Sequence record: MT127620
Strand: one strand, 5' to 3'
DNA from: Escherichia phage PGN6866
Length of the DNA stretch: 64,000 nucleotides
Made by a program: the position numbers and the translations under genes
Notes under the pieces: model-generated
Seen by the model: only the letters and a program-made list of their open reading frames with translations
What the model was told of the DNA's origin: nothing
Database searches by the model: none
Part shown: positions 45,699-60,636 of the stretch, piece by piece
Position numbering within the stretch: the first letter of the stretch is position 1
Layout: each line of letters begins with the position of its first letter

Positions 45699-47543
45699 TT
45701 AGTGTGTGTGCATCCAGTTAAGTCCAATCTGACAATCAGATGCCAGAGGACATTCCATGTTCAGATACTCGCCAGCTTTCTTAACACAAAGCTCAGTGTG
45801 CTCTTTGAGTTTCTGTACATCATTACGGTTTACTGAGAATTGACCTTCATCGTGCATATCAATTACCTTAGCACAACGAACCTTATCTTTCTCAATCCAC
45901 TTGTTAAGGAACATCATAGCATATTTCATAACAACAGCACCAGCACATTGCAGGAGTGTGTTAAGGGCTTTATGAACCATAACCTTACCAGTGGCATCCC
46001 GTCTCATTGTAATCTTACGACCATCAACTCCAATCAAGTATCCTTGAGCAGCTTTCTCTGTCATACGATCAATGAGGATTGCAATACATGGGTTCTCTGC
46101 TAAGAAACGTGCTCGCATCACTGAACCTTCGTCAGCCCCACCACCTACAATTGAACCAAGCTTAGCGTCACCAGCACCATAGTTGAATGCGTAGATAAAC
46201 GTCTTAGCGTTGTCACGAGTAGGAAGACCAGCAAGTTTCTGGTTGTGGGAGTGGATATCACCTTCAAGGAGAATATCACGATACATAATAGCAGAAGCTA
46301 AACCACGTTCTGCCAGAGCTTTCTTAGCTGGGTTGTTCTCTTCGATTGCCTCAGCAAGCATATCCCTACACTCTTTAATGAGGTAGTGAGCGAGCATACG
46401 AAGTTCAAGTCCAGAACCATCATACCCTAAGAATACTTCTTTACCAGCGGGTATGTAATATTTGTAAGCACCTACAGGTTTGTCTTTCTTCCCCGGCTTA
46501 CCTTTCTCGTAAATTACGTTAGTACCTTTTCGTATATAACAACCATCAGGAACAACGTTAGTAATAACGAAAGGACGAGAGTGATCACTGTCTGAGTTAT
46601 AGTCAGACTCAAACAAACTGCGACACTCGTGACCAAACAAACCACGGGAGGGAATATTAACCACGATACGATGTTTGAATCGAAAAGTTGGCGTAGCGCA
46701 GCTGTTAGCTTCTGCCGAAAGTTTACCATCTTCGCGTTCCTTTGCTATAAGTCCACTGATAAGACCCAGCCTGTGAGCCGCTACAACGCGTCTCTTAAGC
46801 AAACTTCCGACACTCCCTAGCTCACCCCCTAACCCTTCTTCAAGAGTCTCCTCGAGGTTTGTAGGAGCTGTAGGCCACTTGTTTGATGTGGCTAGTGCTT
46901 TCTTAATCTCATCAAACGTTACAGGATTACGTCGATTAGGGTTTAATCCCAAACCAAATACGTAAGCCTTCATATAGTTCTTAGTTTTAAACCTAAAATG
47001 CTTTTCTAAGAACTTCTTAATATCAGCGTCAACCATCTCGGCTGTCTGTTTTTGCTTAGCATTACCTCGCATCCAAGCAGTATACCATGCTTGGTATGTT
47101 CCATACTTTCTCATATCTTTCTTAATTTCGAAAGTATTCCAAGGCTTCTTAGATACGTTAAACTCTGGAGGAAGAAAGCCCTCATCCATAAGAGCTTCTT
47201 TAACTCGTGCATCTTTCGATGGGTCAAAGTCTACGTATTCGACACAGGTGAAAGCTCCACCAATATCTTCTCTCTTCAGCCCAACCCTATCACAATAGGC
47301 TTGAGGCCACTTCTGTAAAGCTCCAGACTTCTTAAACGGCTTCATATAAGTAGAGCCATCTAATCTCATCTTAGGTAAGAGAGGAATCAGTTCTTTGTCA
47401 ATATTAACAATAATCTCTTTAAGGAGGTGAACATACCACCGAGCATTTCTTCGGTTGAAACTCACTCCGTGCTTTGCTTGCTTAGAGATTATATCAGCGA
47501 CAGTCATCTCTGTCAAAAATGGAAGAGCGTCCGGGTTGCTCAC
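45699..47543 (-). CDS. DNA polymerase family A, polymerase domain only
   Basis: 614 aa; motif A LGYDGSGLELRMLAHY, motif B RDNAKTFIYAFNYGAGDAKLG, motif C IDMHDEG; GTG start after AAGGAG; no exonuclease motifs. Confidence 0.85.
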   Translation of the reverse strand: MSNPDALPFLTEMTVADIISKQAKHGVSFNRRNARWYVHLLKEIIVNIDKELIPLLPKMRLDGSTYMKPFKKSGALQKWPQAYCDRVGLKREDIGGAFTCVEYVDFDPSKDARVKEALMDEGFLPPEFNVSKKPWNTFEIKKDMRKYGTYQAWYTAWMRGNAKQKQTAEMVDADIKKFLEKHFRFKTKNYMKAYVFGLGLNPNRRNPVTFDEIKKALATSNKWPTAPTNLEETLEEGLGGELGSVGSLLKRRVVAAHRLGLISGLIAKEREDGKLSAEANSCATPTFRFKHRIVVNIPSRGLFGHECRSLFESDYNSDSDHSRPFVITNVVPDGCYIRKGTNVIYEKGKPGKKDKPVGAYKYYIPAGKEVFLGYDGSGLELRMLAHYLIKECRDMLAEAIEENNPAKKALAERGLASAIMYRDILLEGDIHSHNQKLAGLPTRDNAKTFIYAFNYGAGDAKLGSIVGGGADEGSVMRARFLAENPCIAILIDRMTEKAAQGYLIGVDGRKITMRRDATGKVMVHKALNTLLQCAGAVVMKYAMMFLNKWIEKDKVRCAKVIDMHDEGQFSVNRNDVQKLKEHTELCVKKAGEYLNMECPLASDCQIGLNWMHTH

Positions 47544-52271: not shown

Positions 52272-52928
52272 TTAACTCTCCAAAGTTTTCTTCAGAGCTG
52301 CCCATGAGATTGGGTAGAGTTTAGCCATCTCTTCATCTAGAGATTTAGCAAACACTCGAACTTCATATTGAGCGTGAGAGGAGAGTCGCTGACGGCACAA
52401 CTCAAACCAGCCATACAAAGAACCAGTCCACACCCACTCAGTGATCATCCCCTGAGGAAGAACAAATCGAGCTTGCTCTGGTGCAATAAATTCAATCAAC
52501 TTGTCATATGCTGCTAGAGAAGCTTCATATGCATCGTTAATCAGCATTAATGCTTCAGCTCGCTCTCCGTCGATGAGTTGAATCCCTGAACCTGCATGGA
52601 GGTCCGAAGGTCTCGCAAAAATCTCTTTAGGGATGAAGACTTCAACTGCTCCATCTTTATACCGCCGGGACATTTCGTTCCACGAGAATCCAACCTGATG
52701 CTTCTGTAGTTGACGAGCGATTGCAATTGGAGCCTTACAACGAAAGGACACTTGTGGATGACGGAACGGGGTGCAATGTTTCTCTCTAGCTAAGAAGTTA
52801 ATCAGCCGAGTATCACGATCATTCAAATCACCCTCTCGAACAACACCAAAAGAAACCCTTGCAGCATTAACAACAGTTTTATCACTGCCCATAGCTTCAA
52901 TCAATGTTGCTTGCAATTGTTCATTCAT
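52272..52928 (-). CDS. thyX: flavin-dependent thymidylate synthase (ThyX)-like protein
   Basis: 218 aa; RHPQVSFR and SWNEMSRRY resemble the ThyX RHR...S and SxxESxRY motifs, with Pro in place of the second Arg. Confidence 0.55.
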   Translation of the reverse strand: MNEQLQATLIEAMGSDKTVVNAARVSFGVVREGDLNDRDTRLINFLAREKHCTPFRHPQVSFRCKAPIAIARQLQKHQVGFSWNEMSRRYKDGAVEVFIPKEIFARPSDLHAGSGIQLIDGERAEALMLINDAYEASLAAYDKLIEFIAPEQARFVLPQGMITEWVWTGSLYGWFELCRQRLSSHAQYEVRVFAKSLDEEMAKLYPISWAALKKTLES

Positions 52929-53400
52929 ACTTCAACTTCTCCTTGTTATAAGCAATCTCTGCTTCCTCTGGAGTGTGGAAAGTTCCTAAATGCTTAGTCT
53001 TTCCATTAACTCCGATGATAGCTCTGAATTTTGTACCACTAGCCGTTTCTCTGATGTAAACACCCATTGGAAGTTTTCCAGCTTTTCCGGCTCTGTTGTA
53101 TTGTTTTCTGTTATGACAGTTTGTAGATGGGTCAACATCTCTTAGATTTTTAAGAGAGTCATCCAGTTTAATCTGGTTGATATGATCAATCTCAAACTCA
53201 GGCATCTTTCCATAAGAGAAAAACCAAGCTAATCGACACGCTCTGTAAGATTTCCCTTCATAATAAATGTACCTGTAACCGGATGTTGAGACACACCCAG
53301 CAATGCTCCCTGATACTCTCCTACCTTTAGTATTCTTCCACCTAAAGATTCCAGTATCAGGGTCATATGCTAGGTCTTCTTTTATCTTATCAGTTAACAC
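52921..53400 (-). CDS. HNH homing endonuclease with AP2-like DNA-binding domain
   Basis: 159 aa; EFEIDHINQIKLDDSLKNLRDV...NCHNRK then YRGV-type AP2-like C-terminus. Confidence 0.65.
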   Translation of the reverse strand: MLTDKIKEDLAYDPDTGIFRWKNTKGRRVSGSIAGCVSTSGYRYIYYEGKSYRACRLAWFFSYGKMPEFEIDHINQIKLDDSLKNLRDVDPSTNCHNRKQYNRAGKAGKLPMGVYIRETASGTKFRAIIGVNGKTKHLGTFHTPEEAEIAYNKEKLKYE

Positions 53401-55493: not shown

Positions 55494-56027
55494 TTACACA
55501 CCCTTAGATGCAACTACACCTTCAGAGTTATTATAACGCCCCTTCACTGCATAGGAGTGTTCCCCTGCATGAGAGTGCTCAAACATGACCATCTGACCAA
55601 CACGCATACCAGCACGAACTCGTAAGCTGTGGTGCTTGGTTACGTTATGGAACTCAAATGTCAGCTTACTGCTATTGAATCCAGCGTCTGCCCATCCAGC
55701 GTGGAGGTGATTCAAACCACAACGAGCCATAGACGAACGCAGAACAAACAGGCTTGAGATGTTATCTGGAAGGTTAAACTCCTCCATAGAGTGAGCCAAG
55801 AAGAACTGACCCGGAGTGATAACCAAACCCTCTTCAGGAATCTTTACTTCCTTCCACTGAAGATTCTCTTTCGCATCAATATCAACGATGCCATCAGCCT
55901 GTTCTTCAACAAGGATAGTATCACCAATACGGATATCCACACTAGCAGCGTTAACATACTTATGCTCCGCATCCAGATAGCCATTGTCAATTACATCATG
56001 CAGTTCAATACTTCCTAGTAAACTCAT
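55494..56027 (-). CDS. dCTP deaminase/dUTPase-family protein
   Basis: 177 aa; N-terminal ...VNAASVDIRIGD... resembles dCTP deaminase. Confidence 0.65.
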   Translation of the reverse strand: MSLLGSIELHDVIDNGYLDAEHKYVNAASVDIRIGDTILVEEQADGIVDIDAKENLQWKEVKIPEEGLVITPGQFFLAHSMEEFNLPDNISSLFVLRSSMARCGLNHLHAGWADAGFNSSKLTFEFHNVTKHHSLRVRAGMRVGQMVMFEHSHAGEHSYAVKGRYNNSEGVVASKGV

Positions 56028-56036
56028 TCTTATTCC

Positions 56037-57407
56037 TTAGTTATTTGTTTCCATGTCAAAAGAGATTCCACGACCCGCTTCATCGGCAAACCGAACTGTA
56101 CGGGTTTGAGGTTCTAATACTTCAGGGTTGTTAGCAATAAAGCGATCAGCGAGACTGCGGCTGTCAGCCGCAGCGAGTTCCTCATGAGAAGGAGTATCAA
56201 GATCGGAGAGACTGCCTACCACATCTTGGGCCACACCTTCATCAGTCCACACAGCCCTAACAGGTGCGTTGATATCACCGACAGCAAAACCCTGACCAGA
56301 GAACTGACGTGCGCTAACAGTTAAACCATTTGGTCGACCACGAGAGGGTCTAGCCATCCATCGCTCCATAGAATCACTTGTAATACCGAGAGCTTCTTCA
56401 AAAGATGCTCTACGAGTAGGGCTTACTCTTCGTGACTCTTGTGCTCTACGCATTGCAGGGGCTACAAACACCCCTTCAATTGCATTATGTCGGTTAGGTT
56501 CTTCTTCCCTTCCAAGCAAATCTCCACCCGTGTTGGTTGTTAAGTTTGTCAACCCTTCAGACCAATATGCATAAATCTGACCAGAGCCATGAACACTTGA
56601 CATTAACTGAATTTCTTCGTAAGGGATTCCAAAGAATCGACTCATGTCTCGGTTAACACAATATTGAGCACTTGTTGTATCCTCAACAAGAGCAACCTGA
56701 CCTCGTTCGTTGACCAGATGATTAATCGGTTGAGGTGTAGGAAGGTATCGAGTTTGTGCCATATATTGATATGCAACAGATGGAGCGGAGAATCTTAATA
56801 CCTGTGAATTAGGCCACTTCTTGTGAACATACTTGATTTCACGACTAGAGACAACCACTGGACAAGGAGAGGTCATAGCCAAATATCCATGGGGGGTCAT
56901 GAACAGCTTGTCAAGAGTCATCGCACCACGGCACATCATAGGAAAATTATCCAATACCTCTTCAATAGAAGTAGGATAATTAAACATGAATTGGATACGA
57001 ACCCCATTCCACTGAAACTCAATAATATCAGTGAATGTTAATTGAGAACCCCCAGCATAGGATTCGTTTGTAGCTTCAGCAAGAAGTGATGAATACTCAA
57101 TATCTTGCGACTCTAGCCATTCCTTCACATTACTTTCAATCTCTCTTCCAAGAGCTTGCCAACGGTCAGTTGATGTGAAAGTGTTTCTACCAGCAGGAAG
57201 CTGCCCTCTGACAATAAAGATATCAATGTCATGTGGTGCTATATTGTTAAGAACAGCATCACGAATAGCCCCACCAGTAATGATGGGATAGATACCGTCT
57301 GGAATCAAGTTGTTGTTAATCAACTGTTCAATGAAGTGACGACCAACAGTGATATCAGGTTGTTGAGCAACCTTATCTTCAATTTGGTTAATCGGGATAA
57401 CAATCAT
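56037..57407 (-). CDS. nucleotidyltransferase of the CCA-adding/poly(A) polymerase head-domain family with divergent C-terminal region
   Basis: PIITGGAIRDAVLNNIAPHDIDIFIV; ATG at 57407 in TAAAATG coupling with exonuclease stop. Confidence 0.55.
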   Translation of the reverse strand: MIVIPINQIEDKVAQQPDITVGRHFIEQLINNNLIPDGIYPIITGGAIRDAVLNNIAPHDIDIFIVRGQLPAGRNTFTSTDRWQALGREIESNVKEWLESQDIEYSSLLAEATNESYAGGSQLTFTDIIEFQWNGVRIQFMFNYPTSIEEVLDNFPMMCRGAMTLDKLFMTPHGYLAMTSPCPVVVSSREIKYVHKKWPNSQVLRFSAPSVAYQYMAQTRYLPTPQPINHLVNERGQVALVEDTTSAQYCVNRDMSRFFGIPYEEIQLMSSVHGSGQIYAYWSEGLTNLTTNTGGDLLGREEEPNRHNAIEGVFVAPAMRRAQESRRVSPTRRASFEEALGITSDSMERWMARPSRGRPNGLTVSARQFSGQGFAVGDINAPVRAVWTDEGVAQDVVGSLSDLDTPSHEELAAADSRSLADRFIANNPEVLEPQTRTVRFADEAGRGISFDMETNN

Positions 57408-57408
57408 T

Positions 57409-57966
57409 TTACATTTTCCAATATAATGAAGGTGGGTCGTAAGGGTCAAATCCCGTGAGTTCACACAAGAAAAGATAAACCTTAACAGTTAAGTTAACGT
57501 CCTGTTCACAATAAGTAAACATATCTTCAGTGAAAGCATCCCATGCTTCCTCTTGCTCACCATAATCGCCCTTAAGCTCTCCTAAGAACTCACCCCACTG
57601 CTTCAAACCATGACCTCTTGGGCCACGTCTAGGGTCGCCTTTCGGATACTCAGGACTGTCACCAATACGGTCAGGTTTAAGATATCGACTAAGACATAAA
57701 GTGTCAAAGACGTTAAAATGATAGTTGATTAAAGAGGGATACATCTTCTTCAGAGCAGGTAAGTCGAAGTCAATAATATTATGACCCACTAGTACATCTG
57801 CTTCTGTAAGTTTACGAATCCCGTCTTCAATTTGGTGAGGCCGATAGCCCCACCTTTCACCAGTTTCAACATCAAAGATATAAATACACCATACTTTAGT
57901 TATGTCATCGTATAGTGCATTACTCTCGATATCGAATGCAAACACTTTCTTCTTTTTCTTTACCAC
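57409..57966 (-). CDS. 3'-5' exonuclease (DnaQ-like), stand-alone
   Basis: 185 aa; Exo I FAFDIES and [15 protein letters not shown]. Confidence 0.7.
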
Positions 57967-60216: not shown

Positions 60217-60636
60217 TTAACCCTCGTTTTTCAGATACTCTGACCAGTCTCCTGACTCAACCAGAACATCTTGTTCTTCGTCGATATGATAAATCCAAGC
60301 GATAACAGTTTCACCTGAGTCCATCTTAACAGCAATCTGAGTACGCTGATAGAAGCTGTCTTCAGGGCTACGTTTGTTGTAACCTTCCAGACGGTCATAC
60401 GGACCTTCCAGACCTGCTTTGTCAGTAGCAAACACTTCTACACGAACAGGCTTGTTGTTATTGCTGTGTGCGAGAGAGATGCTCGGGAAGTAGGAACCAC
60501 CGTAACGGAACAGATCAAAGTTGTCTTCAGTCCAACCTTCACCAATTGACTTAGCACCAGCTCGGTCATTAACTAAATAGTTAGCTTGACCACGACGAAG
60601 AGAACCATAAGTTGCTACGTAAATTACTTCTGACAT
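60217..60636 (-). CDS. gamma-glutamyl cyclotransferase (AIG2/GGCT)-like protein
   Basis: 139 aa; N-terminal VIYVATYGSLRRGQANY fits the YGSL/YGTL-type motif. Confidence 0.5.
   Translation of the reverse strand: MSEVIYVATYGSLRRGQANYLVNDRAGAKSIGEGWTEDNFDLFRYGGSYFPSISLAHSNNNKPVRVEVFATDKAGLEGPYDRLEGYNKRSPEDSFYQRTQIAVKMDSGETVIAWIYHIDEEQDVLVESGDWSEYLKNEG

What the first reader, a model, noticed from the sequence alone, without database searches (positions are those of the whole stretch)
56037..57407. CCA-adding/poly(A)-polymerase-family nucleotidyltransferase with a long divergent C-terminal region
The N-terminal GGAIRD...DIDIF block matches the catalytic head of class II tRNA nucleotidyltransferases and poly(A) polymerases, but the 300 residues that follow do not resemble the canonical body and tail as far as I can read. 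It is start-coupled to the replisome exonuclease. It could repair tRNA 3' ends damaged by host defence or toxin nucleases, or tail a different RNA substrate.
Basis: partly seen in the sequence, partly recalled or inferred. Interest (0 to 1): 0.55.

Follow-up and report, generated by a model that had tools for sequence, protein, structure and literature searches.

The report
Gad2-like phage nucleotidyltransferase, lysine-free tail
This phage gene encodes an apparently active nucleotide-adding enzyme whose core resembles only the catalytic "head" of tRNA CCA-adding enzymes; it is distantly related to Gad2, a phage protein that disables the bacterial Gabija defence, and its real job is still unknown.

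Summary
The ORF is real: minus strand, 56037-57407, 456 aa. The window is a phiEco32-like Kuravirus, and the gene is the ortholog of phiEco32 gp73. It is already annotated as "nucleotidyltransferase" in many records. The GGAIRD...DIDIF motif occurs once in the window. It is invariant across a small phage-only family (33 clusters among 1.84 billion proteins), as is an acidic residue at position 127.

[quoted passage not shown] There is no tRNA-binding body or tail and no conserved RRD or EDxxR motif, and the Pfam head score is below threshold. So it is not a canonical CCA-adding enzyme.

Close orthologs carry weak precomputed hits to Pfam PF26128 "Gad2". Profile comparison with the founding Gad2 family gives 75-89% probability.

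Residues 291-456 are a predicted disordered tail that is rich in arginine and has no lysine at all. Every relative that has a tail shares this.

The gene is present in all 97 related cultured phages found, but absent from the same gene block in a more distant relative.

Best reading: a Gad2-like auxiliary or counter-defence transferase with an unknown acceptor. tRNA repair remains a weaker rival.

The parts
56037..57407 (-). Nucleotidyltransferase gene (456 aa plus stop); ortholog of phiEco32 gp73 (phi32_73); PHROG 12715
   Evidence: ORF and sequence; 78-95% identical over the full length to Kuravirus genes annotated 'nucleotidyltransferase' or 'hypothetical'; phrog_12715 E 8.6e-261; synteny with phiEco32
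56538..57407 (-). Folded catalytic domain, residues 1-290: class II-like head plus a small helical subdomain
57216..57275 (-). Motif A, G45-G46-A-I-R49-D50 ... D60-I-D62-I-F64: nucleotide-binding turn and the two metal-binding aspartates
   Evidence: G45, G46, R49, D50, D60, D62 and F64 are invariant in 38 of 38 family sequences; single occurrence in the window; aligns to class II motif A
57024..57029 (-). D127-I128 on the strand after the long helix: candidate third catalytic carboxylate
   Evidence: Position 127 is D in 20 and E in 18 of 38 sequences; I128 is invariant; lies on predicted strand 125-133. The catalytic role is inferred from the Pol-beta superfamily pattern
56817..56843 (-). 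Conserved R189-[D/E]190-x-x-Y193-x-x-K196-K197 helix at the start of the helical subdomain; family signature of unknown role
   Evidence: K197 in 38/38, Y193 in 33/38, R189 in 31/38, K196 in 30/38, acidic residue at 190 in 33/38; helix 188-197 in the model
56040..56537 (-). C-terminal tail, residues 291-456: predicted disordered, Arg/Ala/Glu/Gly/Ser-rich, no Lys, Tyr or Cys; basic first half and acidic second half
   Evidence: pLDDT below 50 from residue 274 in the full-length model and for 289-300 in the second model; composition; lysine-free in all family tails
56154..56267 (-). Hypervariable, indel-prone stretch of the tail (residues 381-418)
   Evidence: Among 43 Kuravirus sequences (the query plus 42 orthologs): mean identity to the query 0.74 and gap fraction 0.29, against 0.83-0.94 identity and 0-0.08 gap elsewhere
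57409..57966 (-). Upstream neighbour: separate 3'-5' exonuclease subunit of the family-A DNA polymerase; its stop codon lies 1 nt before the transferase start
   Evidence: PF01612 E 6e-9 and phrog 'DNA polymerase exonuclease subunit'; sequence
55494..56027 (-). Downstream neighbour: dCTP deaminase
   Evidence: PF22769 E 3.6e-34; the same neighbour is found in distant relatives L007 and L008

Best explanation
The gene encodes a catalytically competent, probably template-independent nucleotidyltransferase. [quoted passage not shown] That radiation also contains Gad2, the Gabija anti-defence protein.

Proposed mechanism:
- The ~290-residue domain binds an NTP or dNTP with two metal ions, using G45-G46, D60, D62 and D/E127. 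It transfers the nucleotidyl group to a hydroxyl acceptor.
- The lysine-free tail, basic in its first half and acidic in its second, tethers or targets the enzyme.
- I think the role is auxiliary or counter-defence, as for Gad2, rather than housekeeping CCA addition. I favour a nucleic-acid 3' end as the acceptor. That end could be RNA/tRNA or a phage DNA end exposed to OLD/Gabija-type nucleases.

Shown: the ORF, the fold, the conservation of catalytic residues, the family distribution, the gene order and the homology signals.

Inferred: enzymatic activity, the acceptor and the counter-defence role.
For: - Invariant G45, G46, R49, D50, D60, D62 and F64, with an acidic residue at 127 in 38/38 sequences.
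- Confident model (pLDDT 85.4) whose best structural matches are class II heads.
- Small, phage-only family: 33 clusters at E<1e-3 among 1.84 billion representatives, with no cellular CCA enzymes among them.
- 30 of the 44 close orthologs (77-98% identical) listed carry precomputed Pfam PF26128, whose name is 'Gad2'. The match is graded 'weak' for P0010, which is 89% identical to the target.
- hhalign of the family against the founding Gad2 family gives 88.6% probability, E 2.6e-6, 112 columns. Without the bridging sequences it gives 75%, E 2.5e-5, 130 columns.
- The target and SPbetaL7 Gad2 both hit phrog_1614, at E 5.9e-7 and 8.2e-6.
- Deleting gad2 sensitises SPbetaL7 to Gabija, and Gad2 is predicted to have a nucleotidyltransferase domain (bioRxiv 10.1101/2023.05.01.538930).
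- The gene is dispensable for the replication module. Cronobacter phage A24 keeps primase-helicase, exonuclease, dCTP deaminase and thioredoxin in order without it.
- Gordonclarkvirinae are reported to be unusually resistant to the defence systems tested, with no known cause (PMC11990801).
- The tail is hypervariable and indel-prone at residues 381-418, as expected for an interaction surface.
Against: - The Gad2 link is only at head-domain level and of moderate strength. Gad2's conserved C-terminal half is not shared.
- Gad2 lacks the R-D after GG, which the target shares with class II enzymes.
- The two proteins fall in different PHROGs.
- Gad2's own mechanism is unknown (PMC12904381), so 'works like Gad2' predicts little.
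- Anti-defence genes are usually variable accessory genes. This one is present in all 97 related records and sits in a fixed position among replication genes, also in distant uncultured relatives. That pattern fits a core metabolic or replicative role.
- Gabija was not among the systems tested on these phages.
- No activity data exist.
Confidence: 0.4

Rival explanations
1. tRNA 3'-end repair enzyme. A minimal CCA-, CC- or A-adding enzyme restores tRNA acceptor ends damaged by host toxins or defence nucleases. The Arg-rich tail replaces the missing body and tail domains in binding tRNA.
For: - The nearest structures are all class II tRNA nucleotidyltransferases and PAP I.
- The GGAxRD signature is typical of class II.
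- The first half of the tail is Arg-rich and could bind RNA.
- Some OLD-family nucleases are now known to cut tRNA (PMC12445682 abstract).
- The more distant phage A24 carries RNA ligase 2 and RtcB near the same module, so RNA repair is a theme in this wider group.
Against: - Only the head is shared (143-167 aligned residues, TM 0.3-0.4).
- No conserved RRD or EDxxR motif to select CTP or ATP.
- Pfam head below cutoff and no RNA-binding domain hit.
- No tRNA gene in the window and no ligase or kinase-phosphatase partner.
- The host already has Cca.
- The tail is net acidic overall, and many family members lack it entirely.
Confidence: 0.2
2. DNA-directed role tied to the replication and nucleotide-metabolism module. 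Either the enzyme is a step in a covalent DNA modification that gives restriction resistance (the suggestion in the BASEL paper), or it tails phage DNA ends or primers without a template.
For: - Fixed position between the polymerase exonuclease subunit and dCTP deaminase, close-coupled to the former, across the subfamily and in distant uncultured relatives.
- Related small transferases in Autographiviridae also sit next to the DNA polymerase gene (PMC7693777).
- These phages resist restriction systems (PMC11990801), yet the window holds 33 EcoRV, 10 EcoKI and 102 EcoP1 sites, so site avoidance does not explain it.
- Loss of the ribose-sensing RRD motif would be compatible with dNTP use (inference).
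Against: - The phage encodes ThyX (52272-52928). dCTP deaminase is therefore explained by ordinary dTTP supply, and uracil-DNA is unlikely.
- Strong avoidance of CCWGG, GATC, PstI and BamHI sites and of 6-bp palindromes in general argues that at least those sites are not chemically protected.
- Known DNA hypermodification pathways do not use this fold (my own knowledge).
- Phage A24 has the same module without the gene.
- No modification has been reported for these phages.
Confidence: 0.15
3. Protein nucleotidylation. The enzyme AMPylates or NMPylates a host or defence protein, as the Pol-beta-fold enzymes GlnE, GlnD and MNT antitoxins do on tyrosine. The absence of Lys, Tyr and Cys from its own flexible tail would then avoid self-modification.
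For: - No Lys or Cys in 9,544 tail residues from 62 family proteins, and only 6 Tyr, against a background of 5.9% Lys in the window's proteins.
- The folded domain is also poor in Lys (2.1%).
- Gad2 and a related Pseudomonas phage transferase are toxic when overexpressed.
Against: - Purely compositional and indirect.
- Tyr and Cys are generally rare in disordered regions.
- Ser and Thr are abundant in the tail.
- The closest folds act on RNA 3' ends.
- Gad2 itself is rich in Lys and Tyr.
Confidence: 0.1
4. General RNA tailing. A phage poly(A) or poly(N) polymerase marks host transcripts for decay, to shut off the host and recycle nucleotides.
Against: The match to PAP I is no better than to CCA enzymes and covers only the head. 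No RNA-binding domain is present. Nothing specific supports this.
Confidence: 0.07

Closest known systems
Class II tRNA nucleotidyltransferases and bacterial poly(A) polymerase I (Pfam PF01743 head; e.g. PDB 1miv, 3aql, 4wby, 3h37, 1ou5)
   Different: Only ~145-165 residues superpose. There is no neck, body or tail and no conserved RRD or EDxxR. The Pfam score is 14.1 against a cutoff of 23. hhalign to E. coli Cca gives only 42% probability over 60 columns. The target carries a disordered, lysine-free tail instead of RNA-binding domains.
Gad2, Gabija anti-defence protein 2 of Bacillus phage SPbetaL7 (Pfam PF26128; GenBank OQ921347.1 109563-110765)
   Same: A phage-encoded enzyme with a predicted nucleotidyltransferase head. 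Profile-profile probability is 75-89% over 112-130 columns. Orthologs of the target carry weak PF26128 hits. Both hit phrog_1614.
   Different: Gad2 has GGAITS, without the R-D. It has a conserved, folded ~200-residue C-terminal half that is not found here, and it is rich in Lys and Tyr. It lies in a swap-in anti-defence locus of a temperate Bacillus phage rather than a replication module. It belongs to a different PHROG, 18122.
Small 'poly A polymerase head domain' proteins of Autographiviridae and other phages (phrog_1614 and 10174; e.g. Pectobacterium PP47 gp28, Pseudomonas LKD16, Emajogi gp22)
   Same: Head-only architecture, phage-restricted, placed among replication genes, functionally uncharacterised. 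They match the model in BFVD (E 1e-8 to 1e-4) and bridge the target family to Gad2 in PHROG searches. Some are now annotated 'Gad2 family'.
   Different: They are much shorter (about 170-230 aa) and have no long tail. Some pass the Pfam PF01743 cutoff, which the target does not.

Membership tests
Pol-beta superfamily nucleotidyltransferase | hG[GS] turn, DxD pair and a third acidic residue on a later strand of the core sheet | tested here: met
Class II CCA-adding enzyme / poly(A) polymerase | Motif A GGxVRD...DxD | tested here: met
   GGAIRD...DID is present. The profile-to-PDB alignment to CCA enzymes covers exactly this block.
Class II CCA-adding enzyme / poly(A) polymerase | Pfam PF01743 head domain at or above the gathering score | tested here: not met
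   14.1 bits against a cutoff of 23, E 0.06. The best member of the 38-sequence alignment reaches 22.0 bits, and that is the bridging protein P0081. The 95%-identical ortholog P0002 reaches 20.1 bits.
Class II CCA-adding enzyme / poly(A) polymerase | Motif B (RRD, ribose recognition) and motif D (EDxxR, base templating) | tested here: not met
   The only invariant columns in the family are M1, G45, G46, R49, D50, D60, D62, F64, I128 and K197. The segment in the expected place reads FPxxC, not RRDFT, and no ED..R is conserved. This rests on sequence and profile alignment, because model coordinates could not be inspected.
Class II CCA-adding enzyme / poly(A) polymerase | Neck, body and tail domains that hold the tRNA or RNA primer | tested here: not met
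   No Pfam hit beyond the head. Structural alignments cover 143-167 residues at TM 0.3-0.4. Residues 291-456 are predicted disordered.
Class II CCA-adding enzyme / poly(A) polymerase | Template-independent addition of C/A to a tRNA or RNA 3' end | not testable with these tools
   Needs biochemistry.
Gad2 (Pfam PF26128) | Match to the PF26128 model | tested here: inconclusive
   The local Pfam copy lacks the model. Precomputed hits exist for many orthologs up to 95% identical, but the one whose grade was shown is 'weak'.
Gad2 (Pfam PF26128) | Homology to the founding SPbetaL7 Gad2 family | tested here: met
   Met at head-domain level only. hhalign gives 88.6%, E 2.6e-6, or 75%, E 2.5e-5 without bridging sequences. 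Pairwise BLASTP gives E 0.004 over motif A.
Gad2 (Pfam PF26128) | Gad2's conserved C-terminal half (about residues 150-400) | tested here: not met
   No alignment extends past Gad2 residue ~145. Gad2 has many invariant C-terminal columns. The target tail is disordered and of a different composition.
Gad2 (Pfam PF26128) | Inhibition of Gabija defence | not testable with these tools
   Needs phage genetics. Gabija was not in the panel tested on these phages.

The most novel reading that the evidence does not exclude
This subfamily-wide transferase could be the unexplained determinant, or one of them, of the unusually broad defence and restriction resistance of Gordonclarkvirinae. It would act by nucleotidylating an unconventional acceptor: phage DNA ends or bases, or a host defence protein. 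The strictly lysine-free tail would be an adaptation to that chemistry or to a lysine-directed host response. If so, it would also reveal how Gad2-type enzymes work.
Probability: 0.15. Interest if true: 0.75.

Novelty: new variant of a known kind. Interest (0 to 1): 0.45.

Why it matters
- Head-only transferases of this kind are widespread in phages. One of them, Gad2, is a proven inhibitor of the Gabija defence, yet none has a known reaction.
- The enzyme studied here is fixed in a whole subfamily of therapeutically used E. coli phages that resist most tested defences.
- Those phages now include isolates that grow on E. coli K-12 and can be handled genetically (Bas86-94).
- This makes a long-annotated 'nucleotidyltransferase' a practical entry point for finding the substrate of the Gad2-like superfamily. 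It also allows a test of whether the enzyme underlies the robustness of these phages.
- It is not a new kind of system. The gene itself is already in public annotation.

Tried and rejected
- Replicative polymerase standing in for a missing PolA domain: rejected. A family-A polymerase domain gene lies at 45699-47543.
- Uracil-DNA made with dCTP deaminase: unlikely, because ThyX is present.
- Exonuclease-transferase fusion by frameshifting at the GGAAAATG overlap: no support. All homologs start at the ATG, and distant relatives have 16-18 nt spacers.
- Hidden overlapping gene explaining the odd composition of the tail: no ORF of 50 aa or more on either strand at 56037-56540. GC3 is similar in the domain and the tail.
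- Full-length AF2 with a shallow 11-sequence alignment gave an unusable model (pLDDT 46.5). It was replaced by the 38-sequence run.
- A BLASTP-level 'RxxKYxxK' correspondence with Gad2 residues 151-158 conflicts with the profile alignment, which pairs K197 with Gad2 K129. I dropped it.
- NCBIfam and PADLOC gave no hits. Sequence search of PDB with the single protein gave only noise.
- The afdb50 fold library was unavailable.
- tblastn with P0092, one of the PF26128-carrying proteins, to locate Gad2 found nothing useful. Gad2 was found by accession instead.
- Literature searches found no biochemical study of this protein, of small phage head-only transferases or of Gad2's mechanism. A search for restriction digests of these phages' DNA found nothing relevant.

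Full report
**What is there.** The window is a phiEco32-like podophage (Kuravirus, Gordonclarkvirinae). The target protein is 78-95% identical over its full length to genes of Escherichia and Shigella phages such as DE5, SGF2, SU10 and phiEco32. The local gene order matches phiEco32 gp75-gp72.

The ORF runs on the minus strand from ATG 57407 to TAA 56037 and encodes 456 aa. A longer GTG-initiated version exists, but every homolog starts at 'MI.IP', including those at 25-30% identity. Upstream lies the separate 3'-5' exonuclease subunit of a family-A DNA polymerase (57409-57966). Its TAA stop is one base from the transferase ATG. Downstream is a dCTP deaminase (55494-56027).

The gene is not new to the databases:
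- It belongs to PHROG 12715, 'nucleotidyltransferase'.
- It was pointed out in 2025 as a conserved neighbour of the dCTP deaminase (PMC11990801).

**Is the motif real?** GGAIRD...DIDIF is the only such pattern in the six-frame translation of the window. An exhaustive profile search of 1.84 billion representative proteins with the N-terminal 220 residues found only 33 clusters. All are phage-like proteins of 274-482 aa or fragments, and none is a cellular CCA enzyme. Across 38 aligned members the following hold:
- G45, G46, R49, D50, D60, D62, F64, I128 and K197 are invariant.
- Position 127 is always Asp or Glu.
- Y117, Q139, Y193 and K196 are nearly invariant.

The three acidic residues expected for a two-metal Pol-beta-type active site are therefore all kept. 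This argues for an active enzyme.

**Fold.** A first full-length AlphaFold run on a shallow alignment failed (pLDDT 46.5). A second run on residues 1-300 with 38 diverse sequences gave pLDDT 85.4 and pTM 0.83.
- Foldseek agrees: its top ~30 PDB hits are class II enzymes.
- Only 143-167 residues superpose, and TM-scores are 0.3-0.4. The resemblance is to the head.

By sequence, only motif A aligns. Pfam PolyA_pol gives 14.1 bits against a cutoff of 23. The profile against PDB gives E 0.002 over 26 residues. hhalign to E. coli Cca gives 42% over 60 columns. No RRD or EDxxR motif is conserved, and no neck, body or tail domain is detected. The protein therefore fails the defining tests for a CCA-adding enzyme while clearly descending from, or sharing ancestry with, its head.

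**The Gad2 connection.** 30 of the 44 close orthologs (77-98% identical) listed carry a precomputed hit to Pfam PF26128. This model is missing from the local Pfam copy. Its name appeared in gene tables as 'Gad2'. The match is graded 'weak' for P0010, an ortholog 89% identical to the target.

Gad2 is the second Gabija anti-defence protein of SPbeta-like Bacillus phages. It is 400 aa long and AlphaFold predicts a nucleotidyltransferase domain. Deleting it sensitises SPbetaL7 to Gabija, and the SPbetaL7 gene is toxic when expressed in bacteria (bioRxiv 10.1101/2023.05.01.538930). A 2026 review still lists its mechanism as unknown (PMC12904381).

I retrieved the founding gene (OQ921347.1 109563-110765) and built a 21-sequence Gad2 alignment. 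Comparing profiles gave:
- 88.6% probability, E 2.6e-6, 112 columns;
- 75%, E 2.5e-5, 130 columns when the bridging sequences are removed.

The target and Gad2 also both hit phrog_1614. This PHROG holds the small 'poly A polymerase head' proteins common in Autographiviridae and other phages.

The relationship is limited to the head. Gad2 has GGAITS rather than GGAIRD, has a conserved folded C-terminal half, and shows no signal to E. coli Cca. The target family thus sits between class II heads and Gad2, inside a phage-specific radiation of head-only transferases.

**The C-terminal region.** Residues ~65-290 finish the folded domain. Residues 291-456 form a tail predicted to be disordered, with these properties:
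- The tail is rich in Arg, Ala, Glu, Gly and Ser. Its first half is basic (net +4) and its second half acidic (net -10; my own count from the sequence).
- Within Kuravirus it is fairly well conserved, especially residues 281-300, except for an indel-prone stretch at 381-418.
- Between genera it is barely alignable. In many uncultured relatives it is short or absent.
- It has no lysine, tyrosine or cysteine.

This composition holds for every tail in the family. Eight divergent representatives with tails of 79-198 residues have none of the three residues. Over 62 proteins (9,544 tail residues) there are 0 Lys, 0 Cys, 6 Tyr and 1,076 Arg. Lysine makes up 5.85% of the window's other proteins. I have no tested explanation for this. 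Possibilities are arginine-mediated nucleic-acid binding, or avoidance of self-modification or of a lysine-directed host modification.

**Context and distribution.** The gene is present in all 97 records of the phage collection that carry a closely related exonuclease subunit (at least 60% identity), so it is universal in the cultured Escherichia and Shigella Gordonclarkvirinae. The block primase-helicase / exonuclease / transferase / dCTP deaminase is kept in two distant uncultured relatives.

Cronobacter phage A24 (Grimontviridae) has the same block without the transferase, and carries RNA ligase 2 and RtcB nearby. The transferase is therefore an addition to the replication module rather than an essential part of it. 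More remote PF26128-bearing relatives sit next to ClpP and PhoH genes, not replisome genes. The phage's polymerase domain is a separate gene at 45699-47543, so the transferase is not the replicase.

**Weighing the functions.**
- *Counter-defence, Gad2-like (confidence about 0.4).* I favour an active, template-independent transferase with an auxiliary or counter-defence role like Gad2, most likely acting on a nucleic-acid end. The grounds are the Gad2 and phrog_1614 homology, its absence from the otherwise syntenic replication block of phage A24, the variable tail and the unexplained defence resistance of this subfamily. The fixed, universal position among replication genes and the weakness of the Gad2 link count against it.
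- *DNA modification or DNA-end role (about 0.15).* Gene order supports it, as do the many EcoRV, EcoKI and EcoP1 sites in a phage group reported to resist those systems. ThyX weakens it, because it accounts for the dCTP deaminase. So does the strong avoidance of CCWGG, GATC and palindromes in general.
- *Protein nucleotidylation (about 0.1) and general RNA tailing (about 0.07).* These are minor rivals.

**Verdict.** The gene is an already annotated, functionally uncharacterised member of a phage head-only transferase radiation related to Gad2, with an unusual lysine-free tail. It is of moderate interest as a tractable route to the unknown chemistry of Gad2-type enzymes. It is not a new kind of system.

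Noticed in passing
window 56040-56537 (-), and the tails of family members P0001-P0087: The disordered tails of all family members have no lysine or cysteine and almost no tyrosine. Across 62 proteins (9,544 tail residues) there are 0 Lys, 0 Cys, 6 Tyr and 1,076 Arg, although the tails do not align between lineages. The folded domain is also poor in lysine (2.1% against 5.85% in the window's other proteins).
   Followed up: partly
window 52921-53400 (-): An HNH endonuclease ORF (159 aa, PF13392) sits between the thioredoxin and ThyX genes. These two are directly adjacent in phiEco32, so this is probably a homing-endonuclease insertion.
   Followed up: partly
window 57409-57966 (-) and 45699-47543 (-): The family-A DNA polymerase is split into a separate exonuclease subunit and a polymerase-domain gene about 10 kb apart. 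In a relative (Bas94) the polymerase gene is itself interrupted by an endonuclease VII gene.
   Followed up: partly
whole window 1-64000: Restriction-site counts are uneven. Depleted (observed vs expected): CCWGG 5 vs 87, GATC 117 vs 252, PstI 0 vs 17, BamHI 1 vs 10, EcoRI 6 vs 22, all 6-bp palindromes 655 vs 929. Enriched: EcoRV 33 vs 15 and CAGCAG 87 vs 35. EcoKI sites (10 vs 6) are at about the expected number. The reported restriction resistance of these phages is therefore not explained by site avoidance for EcoRV or EcoKI.
   Followed up: partly
L017 (Cronobacter phage A24, MW343794.1 42100-51585): This more distant relative keeps the primase-helicase / exonuclease / dCTP deaminase / thioredoxin order without the transferase. 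It carries RNA ligase 2 and an RtcB-type ligase close by.
   Followed up: no
window 60217-60636 (-), 61143-62336 (-) and beyond: Upstream lies a GGACT-type gamma-glutamyl cyclotransferase (PF06094). The next ORF has no Pfam hit, but by gene order with phiEco32 and Bas94 it corresponds to the genes annotated there as an ATP-grasp enzyme, followed in those records by a glutamine amidotransferase. This is a conserved block predicted to make or modify a peptide-like compound, and its product is unknown.
   Followed up: no
whole window 1-64000: ARAGORN finds no tRNA or tmRNA gene in the 64 kb, so the phage supplies no tRNA substrate of its own within this window.
   Followed up: yes
L009 and L011 (metagenomic phage contigs of 80-99 kb): Remote relatives that carry PF26128 (311-376 aa) sit in a conserved block with a ClpP-like protease, PhoH and an AAA_28 ATPase, not next to replisome genes.
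   Followed up: no
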